Of a stretch of 61,527 bases of DNA, positions 1 through 39,473 are shown piece after piece (positions within the stretch are counted from its first letter, which is position 1; each line of letters opens with the position of its first letter). This DNA is from a virus: positions 1-61,527 of IMG/VR virus record IMGVR_UViG_3300033069_001718. One strand, 5' to 3'. The notes beneath the pieces were generated by a model, which searched no databases, had not been told where the DNA came from, and saw nothing but the letters and a program-made list of their open reading frames with translations. The position numbers and the translations under genes were made by a program.

Positions 1-66
1 GGCACAGATATTCCGCGAGGTAACTCCCGCCGCTTCCTGTTACTCCGGTTATTAACACTTTTTGCG

Positions 67-492
67 TCATATCTTTGCTTTTAGTAAATCACTGGAAGAA
101 TACCTTTTTGGTTGGTTAAGGACAACTTCTTTTATTCCCAATTCTTCACAGATTTTTGTTTCTGCGCTTTCAAGATTCGTCGTTGTTCGGTCCCCGCTGT
201 TAAAAAAATACAACTCATCTTCCGGAAATATTTTTTTTATTAATTTCAAGGTCTGACACACGGTTTTATCAACGTCGAGGGATGGATATACCCAATTTAC
301 GGATTTTAGAGCTGACATTATTTTACATCGGTGGTCACAATCCATAAATTTTTGAGAGCCCTTCAATTCCACCTGCGTATCATTATTGACGATCACCACA
401 AGCTGATCACACAAGGATTTAGCTTCTGTAATGTATTCTATATGACCAAAATGAACCGGATTGAAGTAACCGGATACGATTCCTAGTTTCAT
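67..492 (-). CDS. small cytidylyltransferase-superfamily nucleotidyltransferase (TagD / RfaE-domain-II-like)
   Basis: N-terminal GYFNPVHFGH (HxGH nucleotidyltransferase signature). About 140 aa, like glycerol-3-phosphate cytidylyltransferase. First gene of the coupled minus-strand chain. Confidence 0.6.
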   Translation of the reverse strand: MKLGIVSGYFNPVHFGHIEYITEAKSLCDQLVVIVNNDTQVELKGSQKFMDCDHRCKIMSALKSVNWVYPSLDVDKTVCQTLKLIKKIFPEDELYFFNSGDRTTTNLESAETKICEELGIKEVVLNQPKRYSSSDLLKAKI

Positions 493-1199
493 TTGAATAA
501 CTCAATGTATTTTTTAAGTTTATCCGCTTCTTCTTTTCGTTTATAGGCTAAACGATCATAAATTGGGCGCTCGTCACTCACCGGTCTTTTCAAATGATCA
601 GTATATGTAGCATCCCACGCAGCTTTATTAGCGGCAGGGTGAATGTGTTCAATGACAATTTCTTCCAAATAGACCCGCCGGCCGATCATTTCCGCCACTT
701 CCGTCACCCAGGTATCTCCGTAGGCAATGTGAAAGTGTGGGGGATTAATATACCCAATCAAATCGATCCAATTGCGGTGGAAGAATCCGTGTGTACAAAT
801 GGGAACGGAGCCGTTCTGAAAACCATCCGGCGCATAAACCAATGCGATTTTATCTTCGAATTGGTCAAAGGCTTTTTTTACCGCAGTATCCCAACCTTTA
901 GTGCGATACACGATGTCGTCCGCGCCTTGATGAATAATCGGTCCAACCACTTCTTTCAACATCGCATTGTGCATGAAGGATTTTGAAGTCGGAATCGTCC
1001 CCATCGGTTCACCTTGAACCGCATTAATTTGAATTTTGGAAGCGTAGGTTTCCAGAACCGGGACGGTTAAAATATCGTCTTCGTCTACGAAAAAACAAAA
1101 TTCAACATCGGCAATATTATCCGCCGTAGTCAATACACTATCAATTAAACGTCGGACATTGTCCGGCCGATTGCGAGTAGGAACAATAATGCTTATCAT
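489..1199 (-). CDS. glycosyltransferase family 2-like (GT-A fold)
   Basis: N-terminal IIVPTRNRPDNV typical of GT2. DED acidic motif FFVDEDD. ATGA overlap with the upstream gene. Confidence 0.6.
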   Translation of the reverse strand: MISIIVPTRNRPDNVRRLIDSVLTTADNIADVEFCFFVDEDDILTVPVLETYASKIQINAVQGEPMGTIPTSKSFMHNAMLKEVVGPIIHQGADDIVYRTKGWDTAVKKAFDQFEDKIALVYAPDGFQNGSVPICTHGFFHRNWIDLIGYINPPHFHIAYGDTWVTEVAEMIGRRVYLEEIVIEHIHPAANKAAWDATYTDHLKRPVSDERPIYDRLAYKRKEEADKLKKYIELFK

Positions 1200-2146
1200 A
1201 GGGTGAGATCGAATTTAATGTTGTCGTAATTGTATTGTTCAGGGGTCATATACATGGTTTTTTTCAAATATGCGGCCAACCGCGCCGGATCGATGGCAAA
1301 CCCCTCCGGAGTATATTTACTGGGATCATGCATTTTGTAAAGCATATTCAATTTTGGCCCTGCTTCATTATAACCTAACCCAACCGCATCTGCTTCCGGA
1401 GTAAAGATGATATCGTGGATATCCAACCCGGCGTTCAAATTGTTCGCCGCGCCTTTAGGCCCAATATGATCTTTAATGGCCACTCCGGCGCCATCCATGG
1501 CCTTCACATGTTCAACGACTAAATCTTTTACCACTGCCCATTGCTTACTTATACTCGCGTTGAAAAAAGAATAAACACTTTCAATACAATAGGCCGCAAA
1601 AATATCAGGAATTAAACGGCCGTAATACTCTCTCAACTTTCGGTCATAGTATTGGAAATGGAGGTTGACACATTTTCCAACTGGAATAATCAAATCCTGT
1701 CCCCGGAAGATGGTATTTTTTGGAACATCGAACCACCAATCATAACCCATGTCATCATCGGTCTGTAAACTTATCATACCATATTTTTCTGTCATCGCTC
1801 GTTGGTTTATTTCCGATAGACAATTGTAATGTTCTTTAGTATTGATCCCGGAATCGATGTAAATATAACCATCAAATTCTCCCGCTTGTTTTACCACCTC
1901 CGTCACCGTTTTATTGAAAGTGAAGGGGAGGTTTAAACTTTCATCCATGTAATTATACCAGATCTTATTACCATAACGCTTTTTTAGGCCCTGTTTGGTT
2001 GCGCCGGTGACGCCACAACCACTAATAACAATACGAAACGGTTCGTGGTGCTGAGCTAAAAGTTTATCCAGAGAATCGATATACTGAAACAGATTGTTGT
2101 ATTTTAATTCGCAGATATTGAATATAACCAATAGATTCTTGTTCAT
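1196..2146 (-). CDS. hypothetical protein in glycan cluster (possible glycosyltransferase)
   Basis: Long ORF, translationally coupled on both sides. No clear motif. Confidence 0.45.
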   Translation of the reverse strand: MNKNLLVIFNICELKYNNLFQYIDSLDKLLAQHHEPFRIVISGCGVTGATKQGLKKRYGNKIWYNYMDESLNLPFTFNKTVTEVVKQAGEFDGYIYIDSGINTKEHYNCLSEINQRAMTEKYGMISLQTDDDMGYDWWFDVPKNTIFRGQDLIIPVGKCVNLHFQYYDRKLREYYGRLIPDIFAAYCIESVYSFFNASISKQWAVVKDLVVEHVKAMDGAGVAIKDHIGPKGAANNLNAGLDIHDIIFTPEADAVGLGYNEAGPKLNMLYKMHDPSKYTPEGFAIDPARLAAYLKKTMYMTPEQYNYDNIKFDLTL

Positions 2147-3723
2147 TAGTCTCCTAGTAGTTTTCTTTTTAAATTGATGGTAGTCAGAGCTTCCATATTT
2201 GTTCTGGCCTCTTTTCCAAACTTCTTTTCAAGCGATTCAAGATACCTTGGCGCGGAACAACACTTATGCCAGAATTCATCCCGAAATTTAAGAATCTGTT
2301 GGGGGGTAAGATGCTTGGTTGGTAACGGTTTACATTCATAGGAAAGAAATGCGAATTCATTGGGGTGTTCCGGTAACGCCCAACCATTTTTCTTCGCTTG
2401 AATATAAAGCGGACTTCCCGGCAAAGCTTGGCAGGGGTAAACATTTACCATCGCGGAATTTAGTTCCAACGCAAGGTTTAAAGTTTCATTCATCGTTTCC
2501 ATATTATCATCCGGAAAGCCAAGAATGTAATTGGCAATAATGTTGATATCCGCCCCTTCAATGGTTTTAACTACGTCCCTAATATTGGTGTTTTGAAATT
2601 TCCCCTTGGTTATTTCCAACCGAATATTTTGATTAGCGGCTTCGATTCCAAGCGCCAACCAGTTCACCCCGGCTTTTTTAAATAGTTCCAAGTATTTTTC
2701 CTGGACGGTATCAATCCGTGAATAAGCCCACATGCGGAGGGGCAATTTTCGGTCAACCAGATTGGTGAGGAGAGGTTCGAAATGAGACCGCTTGAGAAAA
2801 AACATCTCATCCGATAAACGCACGGTTTCCACCCCGTAAGCAGCCAATTTCTCAAATTCTTTTGTAATCAAATCGATACCCCAATAACGAATACCCTTCG
2901 AATCCTCCGAACTAACATACTCCCCATTATCCGTTCGATTGAGGATGTTAATCATACAAAAACTACATCCGAAGGGGCAGCCCAGTGAGGTATAAATCGC
3001 CGCGGCAGGCGTTCGTTTGGCGTGATCAAAATCAGCGTGCCAAAAGTGAGATTTGTATAAATCGAAGGGTTGGTTTTTATAGGGGAGCAAGTCCCACGCA
3101 TAGCCAGGCAAGTCTATGTCCATGCGTTCTTGGGGCACAACCATCTCAGGAGGATTCAGAATATGATATTGCTTTTCTCCACCGTGTATCACGGTTCCTA
3201 TCTGACACTCATAAGATACAATCTCAGTTTTATAGCCAATGCCTTTTACTTTATTTAACTGATCATTAGAACGCAAATTCGTTTTTAACAGATTTCTTAA
3301 AGCGTAAACGCCTTCATTCAAAAGAACAAAATCTACGAATGGTTTGGCTAAAACTTCTTTGGGCAGAGCGCTGACGTGGGAGCCGACCATACAGATGGGA
3401 AGACTTGGTAAAGCTAATTTTAATTTCTCCGCCGTGCGATACGCCCCAATCATCGAAGTAGTTCCAGAATTTGGATTGGGACCATACATTACAAATACCA
3501 CCAAACGCGGACTCAATTCTTCTATTCTTTTGATGGTCTGTCCATCAGTTAAACGTTCGGCATTAGCGTCACAGATAGCAACTTGGTAGCCCGCTGCCCG
3601 GCAACTTTGCGCCAAAAGTAAACTCCAGGTGGGAGTCTCAATGGCTGCGAAATTGTCCGAAAGCATTTGATATGCTTCCTTGGCACAATTGGGTTCAACG
3701 AATAAGACATCTAAATTTTTCAT
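2146..3723 (-). CDS. B12-binding radical SAM enzyme (class B radical SAM, probable C-methyltransferase-type)
   Basis: GCPFGCSFC CxxxCxxC motif after an N-terminal Rossmann-like domain of about 230 aa (LVVFVMYGPNP). 525 aa. Confidence 0.75.
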   Translation of the reverse strand: MKNLDVLFVEPNCAKEAYQMLSDNFAAIETPTWSLLLAQSCRAAGYQVAICDANAERLTDGQTIKRIEELSPRLVVFVMYGPNPNSGTTSMIGAYRTAEKLKLALPSLPICMVGSHVSALPKEVLAKPFVDFVLLNEGVYALRNLLKTNLRSNDQLNKVKGIGYKTEIVSYECQIGTVIHGGEKQYHILNPPEMVVPQERMDIDLPGYAWDLLPYKNQPFDLYKSHFWHADFDHAKRTPAAAIYTSLGCPFGCSFCMINILNRTDNGEYVSSEDSKGIRYWGIDLITKEFEKLAAYGVETVRLSDEMFFLKRSHFEPLLTNLVDRKLPLRMWAYSRIDTVQEKYLELFKKAGVNWLALGIEAANQNIRLEITKGKFQNTNIRDVVKTIEGADINIIANYILGFPDDNMETMNETLNLALELNSAMVNVYPCQALPGSPLYIQAKKNGWALPEHPNEFAFLSYECKPLPTKHLTPQQILKFRDEFWHKCCSAPRYLESLEKKFGKEARTNMEALTTINLKRKLLGD

Positions 3724-3726
3724 AAA

Positions 3727-4686
3727 TTAACCAATGGGATAAATAGTCGATACGCCATTGCGCTCGAATTGAAAATCAAAAACAGCCGGACCAAACTTTT
3801 CAGCGATACGCTTTTTAATCGGTGGGTCGCAGATAACCAATACGAAACCACAACCACCGGCGCCCAGTAACTTAACACCATGTGCGCCCATCGCCATAAC
3901 TTCATCTACTATGGTATTGATTTGGGAAGTAGAAATCAAGTTGGATATTTTGATTTTTTCTTGCCAGGTCGAATATAACATATTGCCGATACCTTTAATA
4001 TCTTCCCGAATAAAATAACCATAAGCTTCTTTGGCTAGTTTCATAATTTCCAGCTTGTCTTTGTTTTCATGAGACTGAGCGATGGTATCTTGATTCCGTT
4101 GGGAATTGGTATAGATCATAACCATCGAATCCTGAAATTCTTTAAGAAAATCGTGGGTGACTGGTAAAGGTTTTACGAGAAATTTTCCATTTTTTTCTAT
4201 CTCAATGGTGTTCAAACCGCCGTAGGCTGGCCAGATTTGGTCTTGGATTCCTCCGGGTTCGTTTAAAATACGTCGTTCGATGGCGATGGCCTCTTTAGCC
4301 AACTCTTTGGGATCGTGTTTCTTCCCAAAAATTTGATTTAAGAGATATAACATCCCTACGCAAAAAGAGGATGATCCACCCAAACCTGTGCGTGAGGGGA
4401 TATCAGAGAACGAATTAAACTCAATTGGAATGTTGATCGCACGATATTTTAATACTTCCCGAATGAGTGGGTTTTGAATTTCATCCCACGACTTTACCAA
4501 TTGTAGTTTAGAATAGGTTATAACACTCTCACTGGATAGTATACTTGGTCTTGGGCGCATTGAGAGGTAAACATATTTGTCAATTGTAGTCCCGATAATA
4601 AAAGACCCATACGCTTCGTAAAACGATTCGTAGTCAGTTGAACCGCCGAAGAAAGAAATTCGAAATGGGGATCTTACTATAATCAT
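3727..4686 (-). CDS. GHMP-family sugar kinase
   Basis: PSRTGLGGSSSFCVGML matches the GHMP kinase ATP-binding motif (PxGSGLGSSAA). 319 aa, similar in size to heptose or galacto-kinases. Confidence 0.7.
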   Translation of the reverse strand: MIIVRSPFRISFFGGSTDYESFYEAYGSFIIGTTIDKYVYLSMRPRPSILSSESVITYSKLQLVKSWDEIQNPLIREVLKYRAINIPIEFNSFSDIPSRTGLGGSSSFCVGMLYLLNQIFGKKHDPKELAKEAIAIERRILNEPGGIQDQIWPAYGGLNTIEIEKNGKFLVKPLPVTHDFLKEFQDSMVMIYTNSQRNQDTIAQSHENKDKLEIMKLAKEAYGYFIREDIKGIGNMLYSTWQEKIKISNLISTSQINTIVDEVMAMGAHGVKLLGAGGCGFVLVICDPPIKKRIAEKFGPAVFDFQFERNGVSTIYPIG

Positions 4687-5678
4687 TACACTATGGTTTT
4701 GCGAATATAATCAATTACTTCGTCAAGACTCTCGTCGATCTTGTATTGAGCTTCAAATCCCAAGACCTCTTTAGCCTTGCCAATGTTCGGTTGACGATGC
4801 TGTATATCATACTGGAAAGGAGGATCGTGGACAACACTAAAAGGTTTATTTCCATTAATTTTAACCCAAATCTTTTTAGCGAGATCGATTATTTTTATGT
4901 TTTCATCGGTGGAGATGTTAAAATCATCGTTTTCCGCTTTTGAACTTTCCATTGCCATTATAATACCCCGAGCAATATCCTGACCATTGGTAAAGTTGCG
5001 GGTTTGTTCACCGCTTCCAAGGATATGTAATGGGTCCTGACCTTTTAAGGTTTTAAAAATCAAGTCCGGCACGACATGGGATAACGTCAATTTTATGTTT
5101 CCAGACAACACTTCGGATTTTGCTACTGCGGAATCTTCGCCCACGCCTATACAATTGAAAGGTCTAACAATAGTATATTTCAATCCATATTGCTCGTATG
5201 CGGCTCTGGCAAAATATTCCGTCGCCAGTTTTTGAAAACCATAACTACTATCCGGCGGCGGAGATTTTTTAAGATCGGCTTCCGCCGATGGGAAAGTTTT
5301 AGTATTTTCAAATACCATTGAACTGGAAATTACTACTATACGTTTTAACCCTTTCATTTTAATGGCCGCGTCGAAGGTATTACAACCGATCCGCTCGTTA
5401 GCGGAAAGCAAATCGTAAGCAAAAGCATGAAAATAAGAGATGCCTCCGATCATTGCTGCGCCGGCAATAATATAATCCACTCCTGGAAGTCGTGGAAATG
5501 ACTGAGTCAAGTCGTGTTCAATTAATTGAAAACTTGGATTGTGATCGTGTGGTCTTCTAACCTTACCATACTTGGAAAAGTTATCAATGCCATATACGAA
5601 ATAACCCCGTTTTAATAACTGTTGGACGATATAACCACCAATGAAACCTTGTGAGCCTGTAACAATTACTTTTTTCAT
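4686..5678 (-). CDS. NAD-dependent epimerase/dehydratase (SDR)
   Basis: VIVTGSQGFIGGYIV GxxGxxG Rossmann motif. Start set at the ATG (MKKVIVTG) that overlaps the stop of the upstream gene. The track start at 5717 is an alternative-codon extension. Confidence 0.65.
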   Translation of the reverse strand: MKKVIVTGSQGFIGGYIVQQLLKRGYFVYGIDNFSKYGKVRRPHDHNPSFQLIEHDLTQSFPRLPGVDYIIAGAAMIGGISYFHAFAYDLLSANERIGCNTFDAAIKMKGLKRIVVISSSMVFENTKTFPSAEADLKKSPPPDSSYGFQKLATEYFARAAYEQYGLKYTIVRPFNCIGVGEDSAVAKSEVLSGNIKLTLSHVVPDLIFKTLKGQDPLHILGSGEQTRNFTNGQDIARGIIMAMESSKAENDDFNISTDENIKIIDLAKKIWVKINGNKPFSVVHDPPFQYDIQHRQPNIGKAKEVLGFEAQYKIDESLDEVIDYIRKTIV

Positions 5679-6613: not shown

Positions 6614-6618
6614 AACAT

Positions 6619-10684: not shown

Positions 10685-10687
10685 AAA

Positions 10688-11518: not shown

Positions 11519-11521
11519 AAA

Positions 11522-15508: not shown

Positions 15509-15510
15509 AA

Positions 15511-18488: not shown

Positions 18489-18934
18489 GATTTTTTCCGT
18501 CTCCACCACCAGGTACCAATGGCCGCTACGAAACCTATGATTATCAGAGAAGTATTGGGATACCAACACGCCAGCCGGAAAATGCCGGAGGGACAAAGGA
18601 GGGGGTAAACGACTTCGGATTTCCCCAACCAATTTAAATCCTGCCATATTCCAAAGAACGCACCAGGAAGCTGAACTGAATCAGCTGCGAGATTGCCTAC
18701 CGGAGTATCATTGTTGAACTGAACCAGATCCCAGTTTGTAACCATAGGAAACCACATGATAATGAACAACACGGATAGGATTAAAGCAGTCCACCCAAAC
18801 TCTTTTACCGATTCTCTCTCCGTTCGCATGGTGGTCCCCGCCATGTGTTGATTCCGTAAACAATATTGTTTTTGTTTTTTGTCGTATTCTTCACACTCCG
18901 TTAACCATTTATGATATCTAGCTTTTATGTTCAT
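18485..18934 (-). CDS. small integral membrane protein
   Basis: Two hydrophobic segments (ALILSVLFIIMWF, LIIIGFVAAIGTWWW). ATGA-coupled at both ends. Confidence 0.4.
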   Translation of the reverse strand: MNIKARYHKWLTECEEYDKKQKQYCLRNQHMAGTTMRTERESVKEFGWTALILSVLFIIMWFPMVTNWDLVQFNNDTPVGNLAADSVQLPGAFFGIWQDLNWLGKSEVVYPLLCPSGIFRLACWYPNTSLIIIGFVAAIGTWWWRRKKS

Positions 18935-19617
18935 TGTGTCTTTTTCCCAAATACATTGTGGCCTCTGTTTTCTTCTTGAGTAAACCACTCATTATATCGT
19001 TGATTGGTTTTAAGTTGGGTTTCAATAGTTTTATCATGGTATAACGCAAATTCTTCTTCCGCTGGCAACATAGAAAAGTTGGTAAACCCTTCAATTTTTT
19101 CGTGTAACCTTCTATCCCAACGAATCCGTCCGGGAGCATTGACAAAGATTCTAGGTTGATAATCAGGAAAATTTACGATGGGTCTTTTAAGAGAGGGCGA
19201 TTCAGTAAGCCGCCAACCCCATTGTTTAGCATGGGCTTCAGTAACGCCTTTAAAATCATTAATGCGTGGTACATAAATCAAATCCACCCCGGCATTTGAC
19301 TCTAATAAAGCGTGTAAATTTTCACCTAAAAGATAATCCGTTGGCAGCTCATCGCCATCAATTTGGAACACTACTTCGCCCCGACATTGTTCAGCGCCCC
19401 AGTTCTTGTGGGCTCCATAATTGCGTGAAAGTGAATGATATAGTATTCTGAATTTGCCAATATGTGGTTGTAATACTTTCTCAGTGTTTTCATTTTTGGT
19501 ATCATTGTCGACCACAATGACAACCTCATCAGCCCCATCAACAAACGACAATTTTTTTAATAGATTGTCAAGCGTAATAGTCTCTGTGCTGCAGGTCACA
19601 AGATAACTAATTTTCAT
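18931..19617 (-). CDS. glycosyltransferase family 2-like
   Basis: VVIVVDNDTKNE and QIDGDELP (DxD-like) motifs. Confidence 0.55.
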   Translation of the reverse strand: MKISYLVTCSTETITLDNLLKKLSFVDGADEVVIVVDNDTKNENTEKVLQPHIGKFRILYHSLSRNYGAHKNWGAEQCRGEVVFQIDGDELPTDYLLGENLHALLESNAGVDLIYVPRINDFKGVTEAHAKQWGWRLTESPSLKRPIVNFPDYQPRIFVNAPGRIRWDRRLHEKIEGFTNFSMLPAEEEFALYHDKTIETQLKTNQRYNEWFTQEENRGHNVFGKKTQ

Positions 19618-19628
19618 AACACACGAAG

Positions 19629-20969
19629 TTAGGCTAAACTTGGTGGATCAGTTTCCACCGGCTTTGAAAAACTTAGCTTTTTAAGTTTTGGTAATACGAT
19701 TGGTTGCGCAACTGAGAACTTGGGAACATATTTTTCCAATAAGCCATGGAACACTTTATCCATTGCTTGTTCCGAATACTCCTGGATATTTTCTACTCTT
19801 AGCTTTTCGGCTTTATCCAGATAGGAGTCATAGTTATATAATACATCCCACATTTTTTCTCCTGCTTTCTTGTAATCCACATAAAACCAGGCCGACTCCG
19901 CGATGATCCATTCATTGACGGAAGCTGGGGCCACCGGCTTCACCTCTCCGTCCAAGAGCACGGCGTATTTCGAATTTAAGAAATCCAATTGCCCGCTCCA
20001 GCGAGGCGCGAGCACAGGTTTTCCTGATAAAGTGGCTTGAAGGATCGGGTCGCCCTGCCCTTCGCCGTGGGTGAATGTCACAAAAGCTTTTACTTTTGGA
20101 TGATTATACAATGAATTCATTTCCTTGGTGGTCAACTCTCCATGAAGCAAATATACATTGGGGCAGTCTCCGCCAATGCCACTCCGGATCGCATGAATCT
20201 TAGCTATTAGATCATCCCGATCCATATTACAAATGGCTGCGCCGCTGGTTTTTAGAATCAAACAGGGTTTTTCCTTTATACCCACGAAGGTTTCAGAGAA
20301 AGTTTTAATTAGGTTGCCAATGTCCTTACGGTCATCAAACAAACCACCGTGTGTCCACTGACCAACAAAGAGAAAAGCAAATTTTTCAGGAATAGTACCC
20401 AATTCCTTCTCCACTTCCGGTTCAATGACATCAGTCTTGTAAAATCTATTCGTGTCAATACCCCAAAAAGAAACATCCAATGGTTTTTCCGCTTTGAGCA
20501 CAATGGATGGCGCGCCCGGCGGAGCATTTTGAACAGTCCGATTGTATTTAGCTGCCGCCAGGACATTTTTTACATGGTTGGAGAGGCAGAAATTAGCATT
20601 CATCCGGTTGACGCCTTCCAACCAATCCGCCCGGGGCGCGGTCGTTTCAATCCCCGCCGTCATGCCGATATTATATCGCGCCGGCGCTTGAAATTCGTTG
20701 GGAATCGTCATTTGAATGAATATGTCGGGTTGTGCGGTGAGGGGCTGACGCAAAATGCGTTTAATAGCTTCCCGTTCCAAATCATCTTCGGCACACGCTT
20801 CAAGATCGGCTAAGAGATGTTTTTTACTACAATGTCCCCACGGCGTTGGAACAATCGCTAATTCAAATTTATCATAACGGATTAGGCTTTTAGCGGTGGC
20901 GAGCGCCCAACCACCATAACCTGAACGGGTCCAGATGGGGGCTTGAAAAATACATATTGGTTTACTCAT
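19629..20969 (-). CDS. GT-B fold glycosyltransferase (GT4-like)
   Basis: C-terminal HGEGQGDPILQATLSGKPVLA resembles the GT4 EGFGLxxlEAmacGxPVIA region. Confidence 0.5.
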   Translation of the reverse strand: MSKPICIFQAPIWTRSGYGGWALATAKSLIRYDKFELAIVPTPWGHCSKKHLLADLEACAEDDLEREAIKRILRQPLTAQPDIFIQMTIPNEFQAPARYNIGMTAGIETTAPRADWLEGVNRMNANFCLSNHVKNVLAAAKYNRTVQNAPPGAPSIVLKAEKPLDVSFWGIDTNRFYKTDVIEPEVEKELGTIPEKFAFLFVGQWTHGGLFDDRKDIGNLIKTFSETFVGIKEKPCLILKTSGAAICNMDRDDLIAKIHAIRSGIGGDCPNVYLLHGELTTKEMNSLYNHPKVKAFVTFTHGEGQGDPILQATLSGKPVLAPRWSGQLDFLNSKYAVLLDGEVKPVAPASVNEWIIAESAWFYVDYKKAGEKMWDVLYNYDSYLDKAEKLRVENIQEYSEQAMDKVFHGLLEKYVPKFSVAQPIVLPKLKKLSFSKPVETDPPSLA

Positions 20970-20972
20970 AGT

Positions 20973-21218
20973 TTAATTACTCTTTTGGTTGATCTTTTCA
21001 AATTCGTCGGCGATTTTAAAACATAATCGGACGGCAACGTCGGAGGCTTTTTCGGCTGAAAATACTTGTTGTCCCGGACGGGGTTCCCAACACATGGAGG
21101 CTTCCCCAATCGCTTCAAATACAGCTGTATATAATTCGGAAGAAATACGATAACATAGAGGTCGTTGAGCAACGGGGAGTGCCATTGCTTCTTCTTTAGT
21201 TAATATTGTCGCGGTCAT
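20973..21218 (-). CDS. hypothetical protein
   Basis: Small ORF, ATGA-coupled. Confidence 0.3.
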   Translation of the reverse strand: MTATILTKEEAMALPVAQRPLCYRISSELYTAVFEAIGEASMCWEPRPGQQVFSAEKASDVAVRLCFKIADEFEKINQKSN

Positions 21219-21442
21219 AGTTTAGAATCGGTTAAATTTATTTGGTTGCTGAATTCGGTTTTTAGATAGTTTAATAATTTCGTGGCACACTCATCACACA
21301 AATCCATGGATAGTTCTTGATTGTCATACTGACTTGGCCAGCCAAAAGTAAGCCATAAATTACCATTACACTTACGTTTTTTATGTTTATCACAGAGCCG
21401 GACATACTCTTCCTTACGATAAGGAACGGTGACTTTTTTCAT
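21215..21442 (-). CDS. hypothetical small Cys-containing protein
   Basis: CDKHKKRKC...CDEC. Start moved to an internal ATG. Confidence 0.3.
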   Translation of the reverse strand: MKKVTVPYRKEEYVRLCDKHKKRKCNGNLWLTFGWPSQYDNQELSMDLCDECATKLLNYLKTEFSNQINLTDSKL

Positions 21443-21444
21443 AA

Positions 21445-21726
21445 TCAATTGGTTGAACAACAACCGCTATTACTATCACACCCACACTCTGGAGCTGAAC
21501 ATTCCTCTTTTGGTAATCCCGCTTCCGTACCAATGGTGAGCGGCCGGCCCTTGTTCCATGAGGTCTGACCATACCATAATTGCCGCCGTCTTACCGCGCG
21601 GTCATAAGCTTCCAACGCGTCCATCAAATAATCTCCAAGAATGAAGTCCGGTGTATCACTACCACTCTCCATGGAGTGGCGGTTGATTAGGTTTTCTAAA
21701 TCTTTTCTAAATGTTTCAGTATTCAT
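21445..21726 (-). CDS. hypothetical protein, Cys-rich C-terminus
   Basis: C-terminal CSAPECGCDSNSGCCSTN. Start at the ATG immediately after the dUTPase stop. Confidence 0.35.
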   Translation of the reverse strand: MNTETFRKDLENLINRHSMESGSDTPDFILGDYLMDALEAYDRAVRRRQLWYGQTSWNKGRPLTIGTEAGLPKEECSAPECGCDSNSGCCSTN

Positions 21727-21727
21727 A

Positions 21728-22357
21728 TTATCCTTTAAAATCCGCCTGGGTTTCCCGAACGGTTTGCTCATAAGTTTTCTTCGGCGTTTCAACATAATTG
21801 AGCTTACGGTAAAGATCTGCCATGCGTGAGGGAGTTTCTTCAAACTTCGCCGGGCCAGCATAAATTTTATCCGTGCTGCCGAAGCCACCTGCACCCCGCT
21901 GGGTTTTTTCCAGATCATCCACTAGTTCAAAATCAACTTGAGTCGTCGGTTCAAAAACCAACTGCGCAATCTTGTCGCCCTTCTTATAGATTTTTTCCAT
22001 ATTCGGTTGAAAACCAGATCCGACAATCATATCTTGAGGTTGCCATATATACTTGAAGCGGCATAGGATCATACCCCGATAGTCATTGTCAACTAATCCA
22101 ACACTATTGGCCAGTACAAGGTTTTGCTTGCTGATGGATGATCGTGGGTGAATAAGCGTGTGAAAATTAAGCAATGCGGGAGCGATAAATAAACCGGTTT
22201 CATATTCGATATAATCGATTCTACCCCAACTTCCATTTTCTATTTTTTCTCCGACTATCTTAGGATCGCTAGTCGCCACAATATCATAACCGGCGGCTAG
22301 TACACTGCCTTTTTCAGGGAGAGTTACACCGTCCGTTTTTTTAACATAGATTTTCAT
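21728..22357 (-). CDS. dUTPase / dCTP deaminase-family protein
   Basis: LAAGYDI (dUTPase motif 2-like) and GDKIAQLVF (motif 3-like). Confidence 0.65.
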   Translation of the reverse strand: MKIYVKKTDGVTLPEKGSVLAAGYDIVATSDPKIVGEKIENGSWGRIDYIEYETGLFIAPALLNFHTLIHPRSSISKQNLVLANSVGLVDNDYRGMILCRFKYIWQPQDMIVGSGFQPNMEKIYKKGDKIAQLVFEPTTQVDFELVDDLEKTQRGAGGFGSTDKIYAGPAKFEETPSRMADLYRKLNYVETPKKTYEQTVRETQADFKG

Positions 22358-22369
22358 AATCAGACAATA

Positions 22370-23866
22370 TTACAAGCCCTTGGTATTCTCTTCAATATCT
22401 TTTAAGACTTTGGCCTTATCAATTTCAGGAATAGGGAAACCCAAGTGTTTATCTTGAGGCATGTGGTTACCAACATAATCAGTCGGTGAATACAAACCGA
22501 ACCGCTTAACTGGCTTGAAGTTAGCCATAGTATAATCCATTGCTTTACTAAATTGCTCACACATATTTCGTGCGTTAAGTCCACCTTCATTCATAGCCCA
22601 GCGCCGGCCTTCCAAACCGCACTTTTCACGTTTAGCCTTACCCATTAGATACCAATACATCATACCTTCCGCCGCATCTTCCCACTTGGCCAGATCATCG
22701 AAGATATAAGGCGTCGGGATGGAACCTTGGACCAAACGGGTCACCGGCCAGATTGGATACGCCCACGGACCGTGTTTCTTATACTTACCCCAGTTATTGG
22801 AACCAAAATCCGCATCAAATTCGACCGGCTTACCTGTATCATCCACCTGACCGATTTGGTCTTGGAGTCCGCCCGTGGCGGTTACGATAACGGGAGTGCC
22901 GCACATAATACTCTCTGCGCAACTCAGACCAAAACCTTCACTGGAAGATAGATTGATCGTAATGTCACACAAATTGTAAATTAGGTTCATCGCATCCGGC
23001 GGGATTTTAGCTTGTGAAAAGTAAATGTCGTAGTCCGGACAAAAAGCCTCCTTGACGGCGAGCAAATCAGTCCCCGCATCCGATTTAATTTCCGTGTGCA
23101 TCAGCATTGCGCATTGTTTGCGTTCGGCTTCGGGCAAGTTTTCACAGAACTGACGAAACGCCAACATAATATTGCTGGTGCGTTTTCGTTGAATGTTACG
23201 GCTATTATACAAAATTACATACTTATAATCTTTTCCGCCAAGGTATTGGTCACGAATAGTTTTCAATCGCGGGTCATTATCTGGAACCGGCCGGAAAACA
23301 TCAGAATTGATTCCATGCGGCACATAATGGAGAATGTGTTTCCCTTCCGGGGTTGGATCGCCTACATCGCAACATTTATCCGGCCCAAGTACATGTCGGT
23401 TTATGTTAACCGTCTGTTTAGAAATACCCATTAACAAGTCACAACTCTGATAAAACGGCCGGTTATACATTGGATATGGTAAATTATCCCAAATATTTAG
23501 GTAGGTTATGGGAGTGGTTCTTCGGATTTCTCGCTCCAACATATACAACCAACCCCAGAAACGTGGGTCGGTGAAATGCATGATGACATCCGGTTTTTCA
23601 ATACCCATTATTTGATACAGAACATTTTCGTCACCATAGCCATTGACCGCATAGAGTTTGACATATGATCCCTTATTGCCTGTCATTTGATCCGTCGCTT
23701 GACTTAGATCCGCTACCTTACCGGCTTCCGGATGCTGCATCGCACCGGCGATTTGAACCCAGTCGTATTTCCCAACGGTGCCCAAGACAAGGTCGCGGGA
23801 TACCGTTGCGACTCCAGAGTTCATACGGAGATCGTCGGAGAGTAATAGAATTTTTGGTTTGGCCAT
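22370..23866 (-). CDS. glycosyltransferase family 4-like (GT-B)
   Basis: SSEGFGLSCAESIMCGTPVIV is an E-x7-E type motif. Confidence 0.6.
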   Translation of the reverse strand: MAKPKILLLSDDLRMNSGVATVSRDLVLGTVGKYDWVQIAGAMQHPEAGKVADLSQATDQMTGNKGSYVKLYAVNGYGDENVLYQIMGIEKPDVIMHFTDPRFWGWLYMLEREIRRTTPITYLNIWDNLPYPMYNRPFYQSCDLLMGISKQTVNINRHVLGPDKCCDVGDPTPEGKHILHYVPHGINSDVFRPVPDNDPRLKTIRDQYLGGKDYKYVILYNSRNIQRKRTSNIMLAFRQFCENLPEAERKQCAMLMHTEIKSDAGTDLLAVKEAFCPDYDIYFSQAKIPPDAMNLIYNLCDITINLSSSEGFGLSCAESIMCGTPVIVTATGGLQDQIGQVDDTGKPVEFDADFGSNNWGKYKKHGPWAYPIWPVTRLVQGSIPTPYIFDDLAKWEDAAEGMMYWYLMGKAKREKCGLEGRRWAMNEGGLNARNMCEQFSKAMDYTMANFKPVKRFGLYSPTDYVGNHMPQDKHLGFPIPEIDKAKVLKDIEENTKGL

Positions 23867-36266: not shown

Positions 36267-36277
36267 AACTTAAAATT

Positions 36278-38792: not shown

Positions 38793-38821
38793 TCATTTTA
38801 CATCTGTTTCTAACACGGATT

Positions 38822-38838
38822 CATATTTATAGGATATG
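38822..38838 (+). promoter_or_regulatory. conserved start-proximal motif cATATTTATA-N4-ATGAG
   Basis: tcatatttataggatATGAGT. Confidence 0.45.
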
Positions 38839-39453: not shown

Positions 39454-39473
39454 CCCCCGTTAATAAATGAGTT

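What the first reader, a model, noticed from the sequence alone, without database searches (positions are those of the whole stretch)
67..23866. 24-kb single-strand phage-encoded glycan and nucleotide-sugar biosynthesis factory
About 26 consecutive minus-strand genes, almost all joined by ATGA or TAATG overlaps, encode at least nine glycosyltransferases (GT2-like x6, GT4-like x2, others), four SDR epimerase/dehydratases, a GHMP sugar kinase, a small cytidylyltransferase, a ColD/E1-type 3-dehydratase, an aldo-keto reductase, a SAM methyltransferase, a nucleotide-sugar-dehydrogenase-like protein and three B12-binding radical SAM enzymes. This scale and chemistry, with C-methylation/rearrangement-type rSAMs and deoxy-sugar tailoring, is what one sees in bacterial O-antigen/capsule or aminoglycoside clusters and in giant-virus fibril-glycan clusters. 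It is very unusual inside a T4-like phage replication/structural region. The product could be a virion-surface glycan, a DNA hypermodification donor pathway, or a host-surface (receptor) remodelling system.
Basis: partly seen in the sequence, partly recalled or inferred. Interest (0 to 1): 0.85.

Follow-up and report, generated by a model that had tools for sequence, protein, structure and literature searches.

The report
Oversized variable sugar-making island in phage
An uncultured freshwater relative of T4-like phages devotes about half of this 61-kb stretch to enzymes that make rare sugars and string them into a glycan; smaller clusters of this kind are known in aquatic phages, but this size and enzyme set are not, and what the glycan is attached to is still unknown.

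Summary
Window 67-23866 is one tightly packed minus-strand train of 26 genes. Searches support eight glycosyltransferases, three SDR enzymes, an HddA-like sugar kinase, a small nucleotidyltransferase, a ColD-type 3-dehydratase with the diagnostic His, an aldo-keto reductase, a methyltransferase, a short UGDH-like protein and three B12-radical-SAM enzymes. Two of these resemble TokK/CysS C-methylases.

It is not a chimera. Two other contigs from JGI samples 3300020576 and 3300033070 reproduce it at 99.98-100% identity across the 24-25 kb junction, and composition is uniform.

The island is larger than reported. It runs off the left edge, a second 8.5-kb glycan cluster lies at 35181-43732, and a Gmd-like gene lies at 53528-54679.

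Its proximal part (GT4, dUTPase, GT-B, GT2, beside a PD-(D/E)XK nuclease and PolB) is conserved in Microcystis phage Mel-JY01, Flavobacterium phage immuto and thousands of metagenomic proteins. The distal part is hypervariable.

Inferred products are GDP-fucose and a colitose-like 3,6-dideoxy sugar, possibly C-methylated.

The acceptor is unresolved: virion protein is slightly favoured, host LPS is the close rival, and DNA is unlikely.

Smaller clusters are known in aquatic T4-like phages, so this is a new variant of a known kind.

The parts
1..70 (-). First codons of a further SDR epimerase/dehydratase gene (324 aa) that runs off the left edge. A second SDR (316 aa) and a DegT-like gene follow outside the window.
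   Evidence: Contig L025 is 100% identical to window 1-975 and extends 2.2 kb further, with Pfam-annotated genes.
67..492 (-). Small nucleotidyltransferase (141 aa), closest to the RfaE domain II heptose-1-phosphate adenylyltransferase.
   Evidence: PF01467 5e-16. TIGR02199 gives 60 bits, below its cut-off of 181. 57% identical to the partner of the GHMP kinase in L012 and L014.
489..1199 (-). GT-A glycosyltransferase.
   Evidence: phrog_14945 glycosyltransferase 2e-40. Weak PF00535 match.
1196..2146 (-). Unassigned 316-aa protein, linked to the preceding B12 radical SAM gene.
   Evidence: No Pfam or PHROG match. Homologous ORFs follow a B12 radical SAM gene in L012. Not related to the GT-A triplet.
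2146..3723 (-). B12-binding radical SAM enzyme; nearest solved relative is the sugar diol-dehydratase AprD4.
   Evidence: PF04055 and PF02310. AprD4 (6fd2) 4.6e-10. CxxxCxxC at residue 249.
3727..4686 (-). GHMP sugar kinase, HddA-like.
   Evidence: PF00288 and PF08544. NF049969 HddA 7e-40, 137 bits, below its cut-off of 600. 62% identical to L012/L014 and 36% to the kinase of the Kovacikia heptose cluster.
4686..5717 (-). SDR resembling UDP-glucose 4-epimerase and UDP-glucuronate decarboxylase.
   Evidence: PF01370 1e-37. Best PDB matches 4zrm 2e-29 and UXS 1.5e-22.
5678..6613 (-). GDP-L-fucose synthase-like epimerase/reductase.
   Evidence: PDB GDP-L-fucose synthase 4e5y 5e-73. NF047922 gives 207 bits.
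6619..7410 (-). Short nucleotide-sugar dehydrogenase-like protein (263 aa) with no match to the C-terminal domain.
   Evidence: PF03721 and PF00984 only. TIGR03026 1e-40. Same gene call in independent contig L015.
7407..7979 (-). Class I SAM methyltransferase-like protein, immediately downstream of a TokK-class radical SAM gene.
   Evidence: PF08241, PF13489 and related families.
7969..9948 (-). Cobalamin radical SAM enzyme of the KedN5/TokK class (first copy).
   Evidence: NF033712 2e-68. PF04055 and PF02310. CxxxCxxC at residue 210.
9914..12478 (-). Three tandem paralogous GT-A glycosyltransferases (9914-10684, 10688-11518, 11522-12478).
   Evidence: hhalign 5e-64 and 5e-51 against the family profile. 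The profile hits dolichol-phosphate mannose synthase at 6e-5 and SpsA at 0.008. The family has 469 representative clusters.
12475..13644 (-). ColD/E1-type PMP-dependent NDP-4-keto-6-deoxyhexose 3-dehydratase.
   Evidence: PF01041 1e-65. Best PDB match ColD (2gms) 1e-47, with the query's 'YAHH' aligned to ColD's 'YSHH', that is His instead of the aminotransferase Lys. RfbH 200 bits.
13641..14600 (-). Fcl-like epimerase/reductase overlapping the ColD-like gene by 4 bp; candidate ColC.
   Evidence: NF047922 166 bits. PDB GDP-L-fucose synthase 1e-36.
14597..15508 (-). Aldo-keto reductase, part of the conserved four-gene cassette.
   Evidence: PF00248 1e-49. 57% identical in L002.
15511..17493 (-). 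Cobalamin radical SAM C-methylase of the TokK/CysS/KedN5 class (second copy).
   Evidence: TokK (7kdx) 2.4e-97 and CysS 1e-56. NF033712 287 bits, below its cut-off of 700. Bacterial homologs are 55-59% identical and sit in NDP-heptose-type clusters.
17490..18488 (-). GT-B glycosyltransferase with no Pfam match; fused to a GT2 domain in some relatives.
   Evidence: AlphaFold pLDDT 92.7, pTM 0.91. Foldseek matches to GT-B enzymes at about 1e-9. 2441 homologs, some 558-561 aa with PF00535.
18485..18934 (-). 149-aa protein with two hydrophobic segments; the only membrane-like protein in the island.
   Evidence: Hydropathy scan. Sequence. Gene call from L010.
18931..19617 (-). Core GT2 glycosyltransferase.
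   Evidence: PF00535 9e-9. 49-51% identical in relatives and 29% in Mel-JY01.
19629..20969 (-). Core GT-B-like glycosyltransferase (446 aa).
   Evidence: phrog_2170 9e-11. 54-57% identical in relatives and 39% in Mel-JY01. Weak profile hits to GT4 enzymes in the PDB.
20973..21672 (-). Three small ORFs (81, 75 and 75 aa) of unknown function.
   Evidence: No family matches. Gene calls from L010.
21728..22357 (-). dUTPase, conserved inside the core module.
   Evidence: PF00692 1e-16. TIGR00576 83 bits. Present at the same position in relatives.
22370..23866 (-). Core GT4 glycosyltransferase (498 aa), the anchor of the island.
   Evidence: PF00534. 61-65% identical in relatives. At least 8000 homologs passed E<=1e-5 (search saturated); the 120 listed are 61-84% identical, apart from the identical hit. 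Best solved relative is chlorovirus B736L, by sequence 2e-14 and by fold 1.5e-15.
24414..25331 (-). PD-(D/E)XK nuclease, the conserved left neighbour of GT4.
   Evidence: PF12705 2e-20. Adjacent to GT4 in Mel-JY01, immuto, L019 and IMG/VR relatives.
35181..43732 (.). Second glycan cluster, outside the finding: GT4-like, GT2-like, radical SAM, methyltransferase, a conserved unknown (38836-39453), GT25, GT32-like, a LicD-cytidylyltransferase fusion, and a fourth B12 radical SAM on the minus strand (42269-43732).
   Evidence: The fourth B12 radical SAM best matches Sden_1168/PhpK-type P-methyltransferases at 211 bits, below the cut-off.
53528..54679 (+). GDP-mannose 4,6-dehydratase-like enzyme, which would supply the substrate of the ColD-like and fucose-synthase-like enzymes.
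   Evidence: PF16363 7e-96. TIGR01472 293 bits, below its cut-off of 415.

Best explanation
This is a real, phage-encoded, hypervariable glycan-synthesis island in an uncultured freshwater myophage distantly related to T4-like phages. Its nearest cultured relative is Microcystis phage Mel-JY01.

Architecture (shown):
- A conserved proximal module lies next to a PD-(D/E)XK nuclease and the replication genes. It consists of GT4, a dUTPase, a GT-B and a GT2; in this phage a second GT-B follows.
- A strain-specific distal part follows, built from cassettes whose nearest homologs outside this phage group are bacterial.

Pathways (inferred from family assignments):
- A Gmd-like enzyme converts host GDP-mannose to GDP-4-keto-6-deoxymannose.
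- A fucose-synthase-like SDR turns that into GDP-L-fucose.
- The ColD-type 3-dehydratase and the adjacent Fcl/ColC-like reductase turn it into a colitose-like 3,6-dideoxy sugar.
- The aldo-keto reductase and the TokK/CysS-class cobalamin radical SAM enzymes may reduce and C-methylate that sugar further.
- An HddA-like kinase and a small nucleotidyltransferase activate a further, possibly heptose-type, sugar.
- UGDH-like and UXS-like enzymes may give a uronic acid or pentose donor.

Assembly and target (inferred, least certain): eight or more soluble glycosyltransferases build a complex oligo- or polysaccharide in the infected cell's cytoplasm. The acceptor is conserved across this phage clade. 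I think it is most likely one or more virion surface proteins, giving the particle a strain-specific glycan coat, as in chloroviruses, mimiviruses and mycobacteriophages.
For: Real and phage-borne:
- Contig L010, a different contig of JGI sample 3300020576, is 100% identical over window 12759-27493. L015, from a different sample (3300033070), is 99.98% identical over 6562-17452.
- Tetranucleotide correlation is 0.88-0.95 between all 6-kb segments, against 0.32-0.45 with a bacterial locus.
- PolB matches phrog_262 at 9e-179, and a clamp loader is present. The best cultured match is Mel-JY01 at 42%.

Conserved core plus variable tail:
- GT4 is 61-65% identical in relatives, more than PolB (53-55%). 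The 446-aa GT-B is 54-57% and the GT2 49-51%.
- The same nuclease-GT4-GT-B-GT2 order occurs in Mel-JY01, Flavobacterium phage immuto and a 268-kb contig.
- Distal content differs between relatives.

Pathway:
- ColD-type His.
- Gmd-like enzyme.
- Fucose synthase 5e-73.
- TokK 2.4e-97.
- The cassette ColD / SDR / aldo-keto reductase / radical SAM is 57-72% identical in an IMG/VR contig that also carries the PolB homolog.
- The bacterial homolog of the radical SAM enzyme lies in a GmhA/HddA/HddC-type cluster with DegT and SDR genes.

Acceptor:
- No multi-pass membrane protein in about 33 kb of glycan genes, so no priming transferase, Wzx, Wzy, WaaL or ABC transporter.
- The core GT4 is shared at about 45% identity by phages of a cyanobacterium and of a Bacteroidota host. 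That argues for a phage-intrinsic or universal acceptor.
- Its nearest solved relative is the chlorovirus glycosyltransferase B736L.
- Chlorovirus PBCV-1 likewise encodes GMD, GMER and UGDH for its capsid glycans (PMC9614988).
- Mel-JY01 has FkbM-methyltransferase and cytidylyltransferase-like giant ORFs inside its structural module.
Against: - Nothing here identifies the acceptor. No virion protein, glycosylation motif or expression timing could be tied to the island; the promoter scans were uninformative.
- The island sits among replication genes, not structural genes.
- Soluble or peripheral glycosyltransferases could extend host lipid A-core at the inner leaflet. MsbA would then flip the product, so no Wzx or Wzy would be needed, and the absence of transporters is not decisive.
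- The GT25 and LicD families of the second cluster are typical decorators of lipo-oligosaccharide (established knowledge of these families).
- B736L's own acceptor is unknown (PMC9614988).
- All the specific enzyme assignments fall below NCBIfam equivalog cut-offs. The named sugars are therefore analogies.
- No GmhA, GmhB or ManC was found in the window.
Confidence: 0.4

Rival explanations
1. Host envelope remodelling. The phage enzymes decorate or extend the infected cell's LPS/LOS core, O-units or another envelope glycan on the cytoplasmic face, and host machinery (MsbA/Lpt, Wzx/Wzy) exports the product. This would block superinfection or stop progeny adsorbing to infected cells and debris. 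The hypervariable distal part would track host serotype.
For: - This is the interpretation given for the analogous clusters in cyanomyophages and pelagimyophages (PMC12801897, PMC7029224).
- GT25, GT32-like and LicD-cytidylyltransferase genes in the second cluster belong to families known for LOS, LPS or teichoic acid decoration.
- Fucose, colitose-type dideoxy sugars and heptoses are classic O-antigen and capsule sugars.
- The TokK-like radical SAM enzyme's bacterial homolog lies in a polysaccharide-type sugar cluster.
- Hypervariability between close relatives fits host-serotype tracking.
Against: - No priming phosphoglycosyltransferase, flippase, polymerase, ligase or ABC transporter is present, and no multi-pass membrane protein at all.
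- The core glycosyltransferases are conserved as well as or better than PolB. They are shared by phages of hosts in different phyla, whose envelope glycans differ.
- No experimental demonstration exists for any lytic T4-like aquatic phage in the papers read.
Confidence: 0.3
2. DNA hypermodification. The core glycosyltransferases glycosylate a hydroxylated or hydroxymethylated pyrimidine in phage DNA, and the sugar pathways supply unusual donors that protect the genome from restriction and CRISPR.
For: - The island lies in the replication module, flanked by a PD-(D/E)XK nuclease with a dUTPase inside it. One relative carries a Mom homolog two genes upstream of GT4.
- RB69 and DLP3 carry nucleotide-sugar and glycosyltransferase genes for poly-arabinosylated cytosine (PMC13326640). 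The candidate RB69 sugar genes lie between DNA polymerase and UvsX (PMC6024577).
- Phage glycosyltransferases add mono- to trisaccharides, including heptose, to 5hmC (bioRxiv 10.1101/2023.12.21.572611).
- The 332-aa GT-B model matches T4 alpha-glucosyltransferase among its top folds.
Against: - No thymidylate-synthase-family hydroxylase or hydroxymethylase, TET-like dioxygenase or C5-methyltransferase was seen among the annotated ORFs of the window.
- tblastn with E. coli ThyA finds nothing in the window, the fetched relatives, or about 187 of the 190 kb of Mel-JY01. This search has low sensitivity.
- Mel-JY01's thymidylate synthase is a ThyX with the RHRS motif.
- Eight to thirteen glycosyltransferases far exceed any known DNA glycan, which has at most three sugars.
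- The T4 AGT fold match is no better than matches to many unrelated GT-B enzymes.
Confidence: 0.1
3. Small-molecule glycoside. The island is a secondary-metabolite-like pathway that makes a soluble glycosylated compound (aminoglycoside-like or compatible-solute-like) used to manipulate the host or competitors.
For: - The radical SAM enzymes resemble AprD4 (apramycin), TokK (carbapenem) and CysS/KedN5 (antibiotic tailoring).
- The GT4 fold also matches small-molecule GT4 enzymes such as MshA, BshA, sucrose-phosphate synthase and TreT.
- The authors of PMC12801897 read similar genes in cyanophage S-SCSM2R as 'antibiotic synthesis' genes.
Against: - No scaffold-forming enzyme was found: no inosose synthase, PKS, NRPS or cyclitol genes.
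- Eight or more glycosyltransferases, including a tandem triplet, point to an oligo- or polysaccharide.
- No exporter is present.
- The matches to antibiotic enzymes are at class level only and below curated cut-offs.
Confidence: 0.07
4. Assembly artefact: a bacterial O-antigen or capsule locus joined to phage DNA.
For: The distal genes have close bacterial homologs (55-59% for the TokK-like enzyme), and this is a metagenomic contig.
Against: - Another contig from JGI sample 3300020576 spans the junction at 100% identity, and a contig from sample 3300033070 covers 6562-17452 at 99.98%.
- There is no compositional break.
- The same anchor genes are followed by glycan islands in cultured phages and in many viral contigs.
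- The ColD-to-radical-SAM cassette co-occurs with the PolB homolog on IMG/VR contig 3300033075_000647.
Confidence: 0.02

Closest known systems
'LPS' / cell-wall gene clusters of T4-like cyanomyophages (P-SSM2, S-SCSM1, S-SCSM2R, ACG-2014f)
   Same: Co-oriented clusters of glycosyltransferases, nucleotide-sugar epimerases/dehydratases, DegT-family enzymes and methyltransferases in large aquatic myophages. ACG-2014f has a ColD-like gene (37% identical) next to two epimerases. S-SCSM2R has 22 such genes including 13 glycosyltransferases (PMC12801897). The function has not been tested experimentally.
   Different: The cluster here is 2-3 times longer (at least 26 kb, plus 8.5 kb, plus Gmd). It carries four B12 radical SAM enzymes. 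The TokK-class enzyme has only two weak partial matches (about 24% identity) in 50,697 GenBank phage records. The anchor (PD-(D/E)XK nuclease and GT4 next to PolB) is different. PolB is only about 31% identical to Kyanoviridae.
Pelagimyophage hypervariable host-recognition cluster (PMC7029224)
   Same: A hypervariable island in T4-like aquatic myophages, rich in glycosyltransferases and LPS-type genes (rfaE, UDP-glucose dehydrogenase). Radical SAM cassettes differ between close relatives.
   Different: That island lies in the structural module between VrlC and gp14, together with tail fibres. This one lies in the replication module with no tail-fibre genes nearby. The freshwater pelagimyophages were reported to lack these genes.
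Giant-virus glycan clusters (chlorovirus PBCV-1 GMD/GMER/UGDH and capsid glycosyltransferases; Mimivirus clade-specific clusters of up to 21 genes; the CroV 38-kb cluster) (PMC9614988)
   Same: Virus-encoded GDP-mannose dehydratase, fucose synthase and UGDH. All glycosyltransferases are soluble. The sugars are rare and bacterial-like. Gene content is clade-specific. The core GT4's best solved relative is chlorovirus B736L. The scale is similar (about 30 genes).
   Different: Those are eukaryote-infecting Nucleocytoviricota and their capsid or fibril glycans are proven. Here the virus is a tailed phage and the target is unproven. No cobalamin radical SAM enzyme was mentioned in the passages of that review read here.
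Mycobacteriophage virion glycosylation (Freeman et al. 2023, as cited in PMC12619734)
   Same: Phage-encoded glycosyltransferases modify capsid and tail-tube subunits of a tailed phage. This is the precedent for the favoured mechanism.
   Different: Those phages have only a few glycosyltransferases (for example two in Maravista, PMC11256854). To my knowledge they lack nucleotide-sugar pathways and the genes lie with the structural genes; this was not checked here.
Phage DNA glycosylation systems (T4 glucosyl-hmC; RB69/DLP3 poly-arabinosyl-5hoC; MT/TET-dependent glycosyltransferase clusters)
   Same: Glycosyltransferase and nucleotide-sugar genes sit in plastic regions near DNA polymerase. The transferases are GT-B enzymes. 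The glycans can include heptose (PMC6024577, PMC13326640, bioRxiv 10.1101/2023.12.21.572611).
   Different: Those systems need an enzyme that creates a hydroxyl handle (a ThyA homolog, or a methyltransferase plus TET). None was found here. Known DNA glycans have at most three sugars.
Bacterial GDP-L-colitose pathway and O-antigen/capsule loci
   Same: Gmd, then a ColD-type 3-dehydratase with His in the active site, then an Fcl-like ColC, with the last two genes overlapping. Many glycosyltransferases are present. Gene content is hypervariable.
   Different: No priming transferase, Wzx/Wzy or ABC transporter. No ManB or ManC. Extra aldo-keto reductase and cobalamin radical SAM steps. All scores are below equivalog cut-offs.
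Class B cobalamin radical SAM methylases TokK, CysS, KedN5
   Same: B12-binding domain plus CxxxCxxC radical SAM core. 330 bits to TokK over residues 16-481. These enzymes methylate unactivated sp3 carbons, often repeatedly (established knowledge of this class).
   Different: Their known substrates are carbapenem, aminobenzoate and naphthoate scaffolds, not sugars. Here and in bacteria the gene is embedded among NDP-sugar enzymes, which implies an uncharacterised sugar substrate.

Membership tests
Glycan ('LPS-type') auxiliary gene islands of aquatic T4-like myophages | Carried by a T4-like myophage genome | tested here: met
   gp43-type PolB (phrog_262, 9e-179) and gp44-type clamp loader (phrog_168, 7e-74). 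The nearest cultured relative, Mel-JY01, has a T4-like capsid, sheath and tube. The relationship is distant: 31% PolB identity to Kyanoviridae.
Glycan ('LPS-type') auxiliary gene islands of aquatic T4-like myophages | Co-oriented cluster of glycosyltransferases and nucleotide-sugar enzymes | tested here: met
   29 such genes cover 30.0 kb, 48.8% of the window.
Glycan ('LPS-type') auxiliary gene islands of aquatic T4-like myophages | Gene content varies between related phages | tested here: met
   Region 67-18647 has no counterpart in the fetched parts of five IMG/VR relatives, apart from one cassette. The relatives' islands hold different genes.
Glycan ('LPS-type') auxiliary gene islands of aquatic T4-like myophages | Acts on the host cell surface (the assumed role) | not testable with these tools
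   The papers read offer no experimental basis either (PMC7029224, PMC12801897).
GDP-L-colitose pathway (Gmd, ColD, ColC) | ColD-type 3-dehydratase with active-site His in place of the aminotransferase Lys | tested here: met
   The alignment to ColD (2gms) and its H188N and H188K mutants places the query's His at that position.
GDP-L-colitose pathway (Gmd, ColD, ColC) | GDP-mannose 4,6-dehydratase present | tested here: inconclusive
   PF16363 7e-96, but TIGR01472 gives 293 bits against a cut-off of 415, in two stretches, and the gene is 40 kb from the ColD-like gene. It could instead be a heptose 4,6-dehydratase.
GDP-L-colitose pathway (Gmd, ColD, ColC) | ColC (C5-epimerase / C4-reductase) acting on the 3,6-dideoxy-4-keto product | tested here: inconclusive
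   An Fcl-like SDR overlaps the ColD-like gene by 4 bp. Substrate specificity cannot be read from the sequence.
Wzx/Wzy- or ABC-transporter-dependent O-antigen/capsule locus | Priming phosphoglycosyltransferase plus flippase and polymerase, or an ABC transporter | tested here: not met
   No Pfam match to these families. No protein with more than two hydrophobic segments in 67-25331 or 35181-43732.
Class B cobalamin-dependent radical SAM methyltransferases (TokK/CysS/KedN5) | N-terminal B12-binding domain plus a CxxxCxxC radical SAM core | tested here: met
   PF02310 and PF04055. Cysteine motifs located.
Class B cobalamin-dependent radical SAM methyltransferases (TokK/CysS/KedN5) | Membership of the curated KedN5 subfamily | tested here: not met
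   NF033712 gives 287 and 231 bits against a cut-off of 700. The proteins are still clear homologs of TokK (2.4e-97). They should be called TokK-class, not KedN5 orthologs.
Class B cobalamin-dependent radical SAM methyltransferases (TokK/CysS/KedN5) | Methyl transfer to an unactivated carbon | not testable with these tools
   Needs anaerobic reconstitution with cobalamin and the NDP-sugar substrate.
Phage DNA glycosylation systems | Enzyme that makes the hydroxyl handle (ThyA-family hydroxymethylase or hydroxylase, or a C5-methyltransferase plus TET/JBP) | tested here: inconclusive
   None was found among the window's annotated ORFs or by tblastn with ThyA. Mel-JY01 has a ThyX. However, the window is only part of a contig of at least 125 kb, and the search was insensitive.
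Virus-made virion glycans (chlorovirus / mimivirus type) | Virus-encoded nucleotide-sugar enzymes plus soluble glycosyltransferases | tested here: met
   Gmd-like, fucose-synthase-like and UGDH-like enzymes and 8-13 glycosyltransferases without transmembrane segments. The core GT4 is nearest to chlorovirus B736L.
Virus-made virion glycans (chlorovirus / mimivirus type) | Glycan covalently attached to virion proteins | not testable with these tools
   Needs virion glycoproteomics.

The most novel reading that the evidence does not exclude
A widespread clade of aquatic tailed phages, whose cultured members infect hosts from Cyanobacteria to Bacteroidota, builds its own strain-specific glycan coat on the virion. 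It would do so from a conserved three- or four-glycosyltransferase core plus swappable sugar cassettes. In this phage the cassettes would include TokK-class cobalamin radical SAM enzymes that C-methylate a nucleotide-activated 3,6-dideoxy hexose or heptose. That sugar chemistry has not been described in any organism, and it would make the phage dependent on host cobalamin and low-oxygen conditions.
Probability: 0.2. Interest if true: 0.85.

Novelty: new variant of a known kind. Interest (0 to 1): 0.6.

Why it matters
If the product coats the virion, tailed phages would join giant viruses in making elaborate, clade-specific glycans on their own. That bears on adsorption, on escape from host or grazer recognition, and on particle stability in lakes.

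If the product goes to the host envelope, this would be the largest known phage toolkit for rewriting a cell surface during lytic infection.

Three points stand whichever target is right:
- The cassette of ColD-like, Fcl-like, aldo-keto reductase and TokK-class radical SAM genes is shared with bacterial NDP-heptose-type clusters. It points to an uncharacterised family of cobalamin-dependent sugar C-methylases that can be tested directly.
- The conserved anchor (PD-(D/E)XK nuclease, GT4, GT-B, GT2) occurs in two cultured phages, Mel-JY01 and Flavobacterium phage immuto. The long-standing question of what 'LPS genes' in aquatic phages do can therefore be addressed experimentally.
- Six radical SAM enzymes, four of them B12-binding, in 61 kb imply that the phage depends on host cobalamin and iron-sulfur supply.

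Tried and rejected
- Megablast of the window against 50,697 phage records: no match.
- Exact look-up of the PolB protein: not on record.
- The search for related loci with the 446-aa core protein: no relatives recovered, because this method needs near-identical peptides.
- Attempts to fetch the source contig beyond the left edge by exact DNA patterns in metagenome and viral collections: no match. The extension is known only from the 3.1-kb contig L025.
- Expression timing from promoters: the T4 late-promoter consensus TATAAATA occurs 9 times against 4.75 expected, with 4 of 100 shuffles reaching 9. Sigma-70-like and terminator-like sites are at background. No inference was drawn.
- Fold searches of the two modelled glycosyltransferases against PDB and viral structures: they show GT-B folds but do not discriminate between acceptor types. 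T4 alpha-glucosyltransferase scores no better than SenB, BshA, TarM or OGT.
- Pfam at E up to 10 for the remaining unknown ORFs: nothing usable for 1196-2146, 18485-18934 or the three small ORFs.
- The 'moraphage' lineage paper (PMC12619734) also reports core glycosyltransferases. I could not establish whether it is the same clade, so it is not used as such.
- Chimeric assembly was considered and rejected.
- A giant-virus origin was considered and rejected: the replication genes are of the T4-like phage type and the nearest relatives are cultured phages.

Full report
OBSERVATION. The minus strand from 25331 down to the left edge of the window is one uninterrupted gene train. Between 67 and 23866 there are 26 ORFs. 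I refined the gene calls with those of independent contigs. Of the 25 junctions, 12 are 4-bp ATGA overlaps and 2 are 1-bp TAATG overlaps. Three are longer overlaps, 7 are gaps of 2-12 nt and one is a gap of 55 nt.

These are a small CTP_transf_like nucleotidyltransferase, a GHMP kinase, three SDR epimerase/dehydratases, a short nucleotide-sugar dehydrogenase-like protein, a methyltransferase, a DegT-family enzyme, an aldo-keto reductase and three B12-binding radical SAM enzymes. All three radical SAM enzymes have the CxxxCxxC motif. The DegT-family protein aligns best with ColD (2gms, 1e-47). It carries His where ColD has His188 and aminotransferases have Lys, so the call of a ColD/E1-type 3-dehydratase is right.

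Eight glycosyltransferases are supported.
- 489-1199 matches phrog_14945 at 2e-40.
- 9914-10684, 10688-11518 and 11522-12478 form a tandem triplet that Pfam does not recognise above its cut-offs. They are mutual paralogs (hhalign 5e-64 and 5e-51), and their family profile hits the GT2 enzymes dolichol-phosphate mannose synthase and SpsA.
- 17490-18488 has no Pfam match, but its AlphaFold model (pLDDT 92.7) has a GT-B fold.
- 18931-19617 is a GT2.
- 19629-20969 matches phrog_2170.
- 22370-23866 is a GT4.
The 316-aa protein at 1196-2146 stays unassigned.

NOT AN ARTEFACT. GC content is 0.39-0.46 throughout. Tetranucleotide profiles of all 6-kb segments correlate at 0.88-0.95, with no step at 24 kb. 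Against a bacterial locus that carries homologous genes the correlation is 0.32-0.45. A 51-kb contig from JGI sample 3300020576 is 100% identical over window 12759-27493, so it spans the junction. A contig from sample 3300033070 is 99.98% identical over 6562-17452. An IMG/VR contig (3300033075_000647) carries both a PolB homolog (53% identical) and the cassette of ColD-like, SDR, aldo-keto reductase and radical SAM genes (57-72% identical).

WHAT THE PHAGE IS. The window encodes a gp43-type family B DNA polymerase, a gp44-type clamp loader, an SNF2-type helicase and three HNH endonucleases. There is no nucleotide-level match in GenBank phages. The best PolB match is Microcystis phage Mel-JY01 at 42%, followed by T4-like cyanophages at about 31%. 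Several related contigs come from lake metagenomes, judging by their record names; that is my inference. The host is unknown. The core genes are shared with phages of Microcystis and of a Baltic Flavobacterium.

ANATOMY: A CONSERVED CORE AND A VARIABLE TAIL. Five IMG/VR relatives, Mel-JY01, Flavobacterium phage immuto (a PolA phage) and a 268-kb metagenomic contig all have the order PD-(D/E)XK nuclease, GT4, (dUTPase), GT-B, GT2. GT4 is 61-65% identical among relatives. That is more than PolB (53-55%) or the clamp loader (49-51%). At least 8000 database proteins match GT4 at E<=1e-5, and apart from the identical hit the 120 listed are 61-84% identical. Some lie on contigs of up to about 400 kb. 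The 332-aa GT-B has 2441 homologs and is sometimes fused to a GT2 domain.

Distal to this core the content changes from phage to phage.
- The 214-kb IMG/VR relative has methyltransferases, GT2 enzymes, DUF6492 and a GT11.
- Immuto has aminotransferases, a mannosyltransferase and an epimerase.
- The 268-kb contig has other radical SAM enzymes and a GT7.
- Two metagenomic contigs (L012, L014), which I take to be phage because of the shared cassette and similar composition, are filled for at least 22 kb with glycan genes. These include the same radical SAM / aldo-keto reductase / SDR / DegT / GHMP kinase / nucleotidyltransferase cassette, plus transketolase-like, GT10 and GT11 genes.

THE SYSTEM IS LARGER THAN THE FINDING.
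- The train runs off the left edge. Contig L025 is identical to window 1-975 and adds two more SDR genes and a DegT-like fragment.
- A second cluster lies at 35181-43732. It has GT4-like and GT2-like genes, a radical SAM gene, a methyltransferase, GT25 and GT32-like genes, a LicD-cytidylyltransferase fusion and a fourth B12 radical SAM enzyme. That enzyme best matches P-methyltransferases, below the cut-off.
- A Gmd-like gene lies at 53528-54679.
In total, 29 glycan-type genes cover 30.0 kb, which is 48.8% of the window.

PATHWAYS (INFERRED).
- Gmd-like plus 5678-6613 (5e-73 to GDP-L-fucose synthase) gives a GDP-fucose route. Chlorovirus PBCV-1 encodes the same pair (PMC9614988).
- Gmd-like plus the ColD-type dehydratase plus the overlapping Fcl-like SDR (1e-36) reproduces the logic of the GDP-colitose route (established knowledge of that pathway).
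- The aldo-keto reductase and the radical SAM enzyme at 15511-17493 always travel with this pair. That radical SAM enzyme scores 2.4e-97 to TokK and 1e-56 to CysS. These are cobalamin-dependent enzymes that methylate unactivated carbons, often repeatedly (established knowledge).
- Homologs of this radical SAM enzyme are 55-59% identical in bacteria. In Kovacikia minuta the gene sits among GmhA-, HddA- and HddC/GmhB-like genes, DegT, a transketolase-like pair and four SDRs. The substrate is therefore probably a nucleotide-activated dideoxy hexose or heptose.
- The HddA-like kinase (7e-40) and the RfaE-II-like nucleotidyltransferase are a conserved pair in L012 and L014.
- The enzyme at 2146-3723 is nearest to the sugar diol-dehydratase AprD4.
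- The UGDH-like protein and the UXS/GalE-like SDR may give a uronate or pentose donor.
All these scores are below NCBIfam equivalog cut-offs. The named sugars are analogies, not identifications.

WHAT IS GLYCOSYLATED. This cannot be settled here.

Against an autonomous O-antigen or capsule pathway: there is no priming transferase, flippase, polymerase, ligase or ABC transporter. The only membrane-like protein is a 149-aa ORF with two hydrophobic segments. LOS-type extension of lipid A-core needs none of these, however, and GT25 and LicD are typical LOS decorators.

For a phage-intrinsic acceptor:
- The core glycosyltransferases are among the best conserved genes of the clade.
- They are shared by phages of hosts in different phyla.
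- The nearest solved relative of GT4, by sequence (2e-14, against 2e-5 for the next match) and by fold (1.5e-15), is the chlorovirus glycosyltransferase B736L.
- Mel-JY01 carries giant FkbM-methyltransferase and cytidylyltransferase-like ORFs inside its structural module.

For DNA as the target:
- The island lies in the replication module with a nuclease and a dUTPase, and one relative has Mom nearby.
- There are precedents in RB69, DLP3 and the MT/TET-linked clusters (PMC6024577, PMC13326640, bioRxiv 10.1101/2023.12.21.572611).

Against DNA as the target:
- No ThyA-family, TET or C5-methyltransferase gene was found in the window.
- Mel-JY01's thymidylate synthase is a ThyX.
- The number of transferases far exceeds any known DNA glycan.

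My weights are: virion protein 0.40, host envelope 0.30, DNA 0.10, small molecule 0.07, artefact 0.02. The remainder is left unassigned for targets not considered here.

COMPARISON AND NOVELTY. Glycan clusters are a described feature of aquatic T4-like phages (PMC7029224, PMC12801897; ACG-2014f). The finding is therefore not categorically new.

The following appear not to have been described in the searchable literature or, for the third item, to be present in GenBank phages:
- The scale, which is comparable to giant-virus clusters of 21-34 genes (PMC9614988).
- The conserved-core plus variable-tail architecture, anchored at a PD-(D/E)XK nuclease, across phages of different host phyla.
- TokK-class cobalamin radical SAM cassettes joined to a ColD/Fcl-like pair.

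I rate it a new variant of a known kind, with interest 0.6. The function is open, but it can be tested because two cultured phages carry the core.

Noticed in passing
window 38824-38831, 43812-43819, 46751-46758, 47621-47628: Four plus-strand genes (starts at 38836, 43826, 46764 and 47635) are each preceded by ATATTTATA followed by 5-6 nt and then ATG. This is the reverse complement of the T4 late-promoter consensus, at a fixed short distance from the start codon. At least three of the four genes (38836, 43826, 46764) are conserved in relatives. The glycan train on the minus strand lacks the motif. It may be a phage-specific promoter or translation signal.
   Followed up: partly
window 42269-43732 (-) and 41284-42282 (+): The fourth B12 radical SAM enzyme best matches P-methyltransferases of the Sden_1168 and PhpK families (211 bits, below the cut-off). 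It converges on a LicD-cytidylyltransferase fusion. The pairing hints at a phosphonate- or phosphinate-type or phospho-alcohol decoration of the glycan.
   Followed up: partly
window 27754-28470, 51282-51980, 54723-55367; L006 3866-6391; protein P0012: Three free-standing HNH endonuclease genes sit next to PolB, the helicase and Gmd. In relative L006 the core GT4 gene is interrupted by about 1 kb, and in Mel-JY01 it is split into two ORFs. One homolog of the TokK-like enzyme carries an intein (PF14528, PF14890). Mobile elements therefore target these conserved glycan genes.
   Followed up: no
window 37174-38223 (+) and 57307-58224 (-): Two further radical SAM proteins without a B12 domain, best matching viperin-like and MoaA-like families at low scores. 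Together with the four B12-binding enzymes, this makes six radical SAM enzymes in 61.5 kb.
   Followed up: partly
window 6619-7410: The nucleotide-sugar dehydrogenase-like protein has an intact GxGxxG N-terminus and the central domain but no match to the C-terminal UDP-binding domain. The same 263-aa gene is called in an independent contig, so this is not a sequencing truncation. Whether it is active is unclear.
   Followed up: partly
window 32172-32795, 55550-56200, 56234-57073: A Macro-domain protein (conserved at 55-57% in relatives), a ClpP-like protease and a calcineurin-like phosphoesterase are encoded among the replication genes.
   Followed up: no
window 61379-61454 (-): tRNA-Leu (anticodon TAA). 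Mel-JY01 also has a tRNA-Leu in its replication region; its anticodon was not checked.
   Followed up: no
L022 (Mel-JY01) 4750-8430 and 11243-13162: Mel-JY01 encodes a 1226-aa 'FkbM methyltransferase' protein and a 639-aa 'cytidylyltransferase-like' protein inside its structural module, beside a structural protein and upstream of the terminase. These could be virion-associated sugar-modifying proteins.
   Followed up: no
L019 8577-9122: A 268-kb relative carries a Mom (DNA adenine modification) homolog two genes upstream of the core GT4, between the PD-(D/E)XK nuclease and the glycan island.
   Followed up: no
window 24414-25331 (-) and 25334-26128 (+): The divergent genes that head the glycan-side and replication-side transcription units are only 2 bp apart. 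Their promoters must therefore lie inside coding sequence or much further upstream.
   Followed up: no
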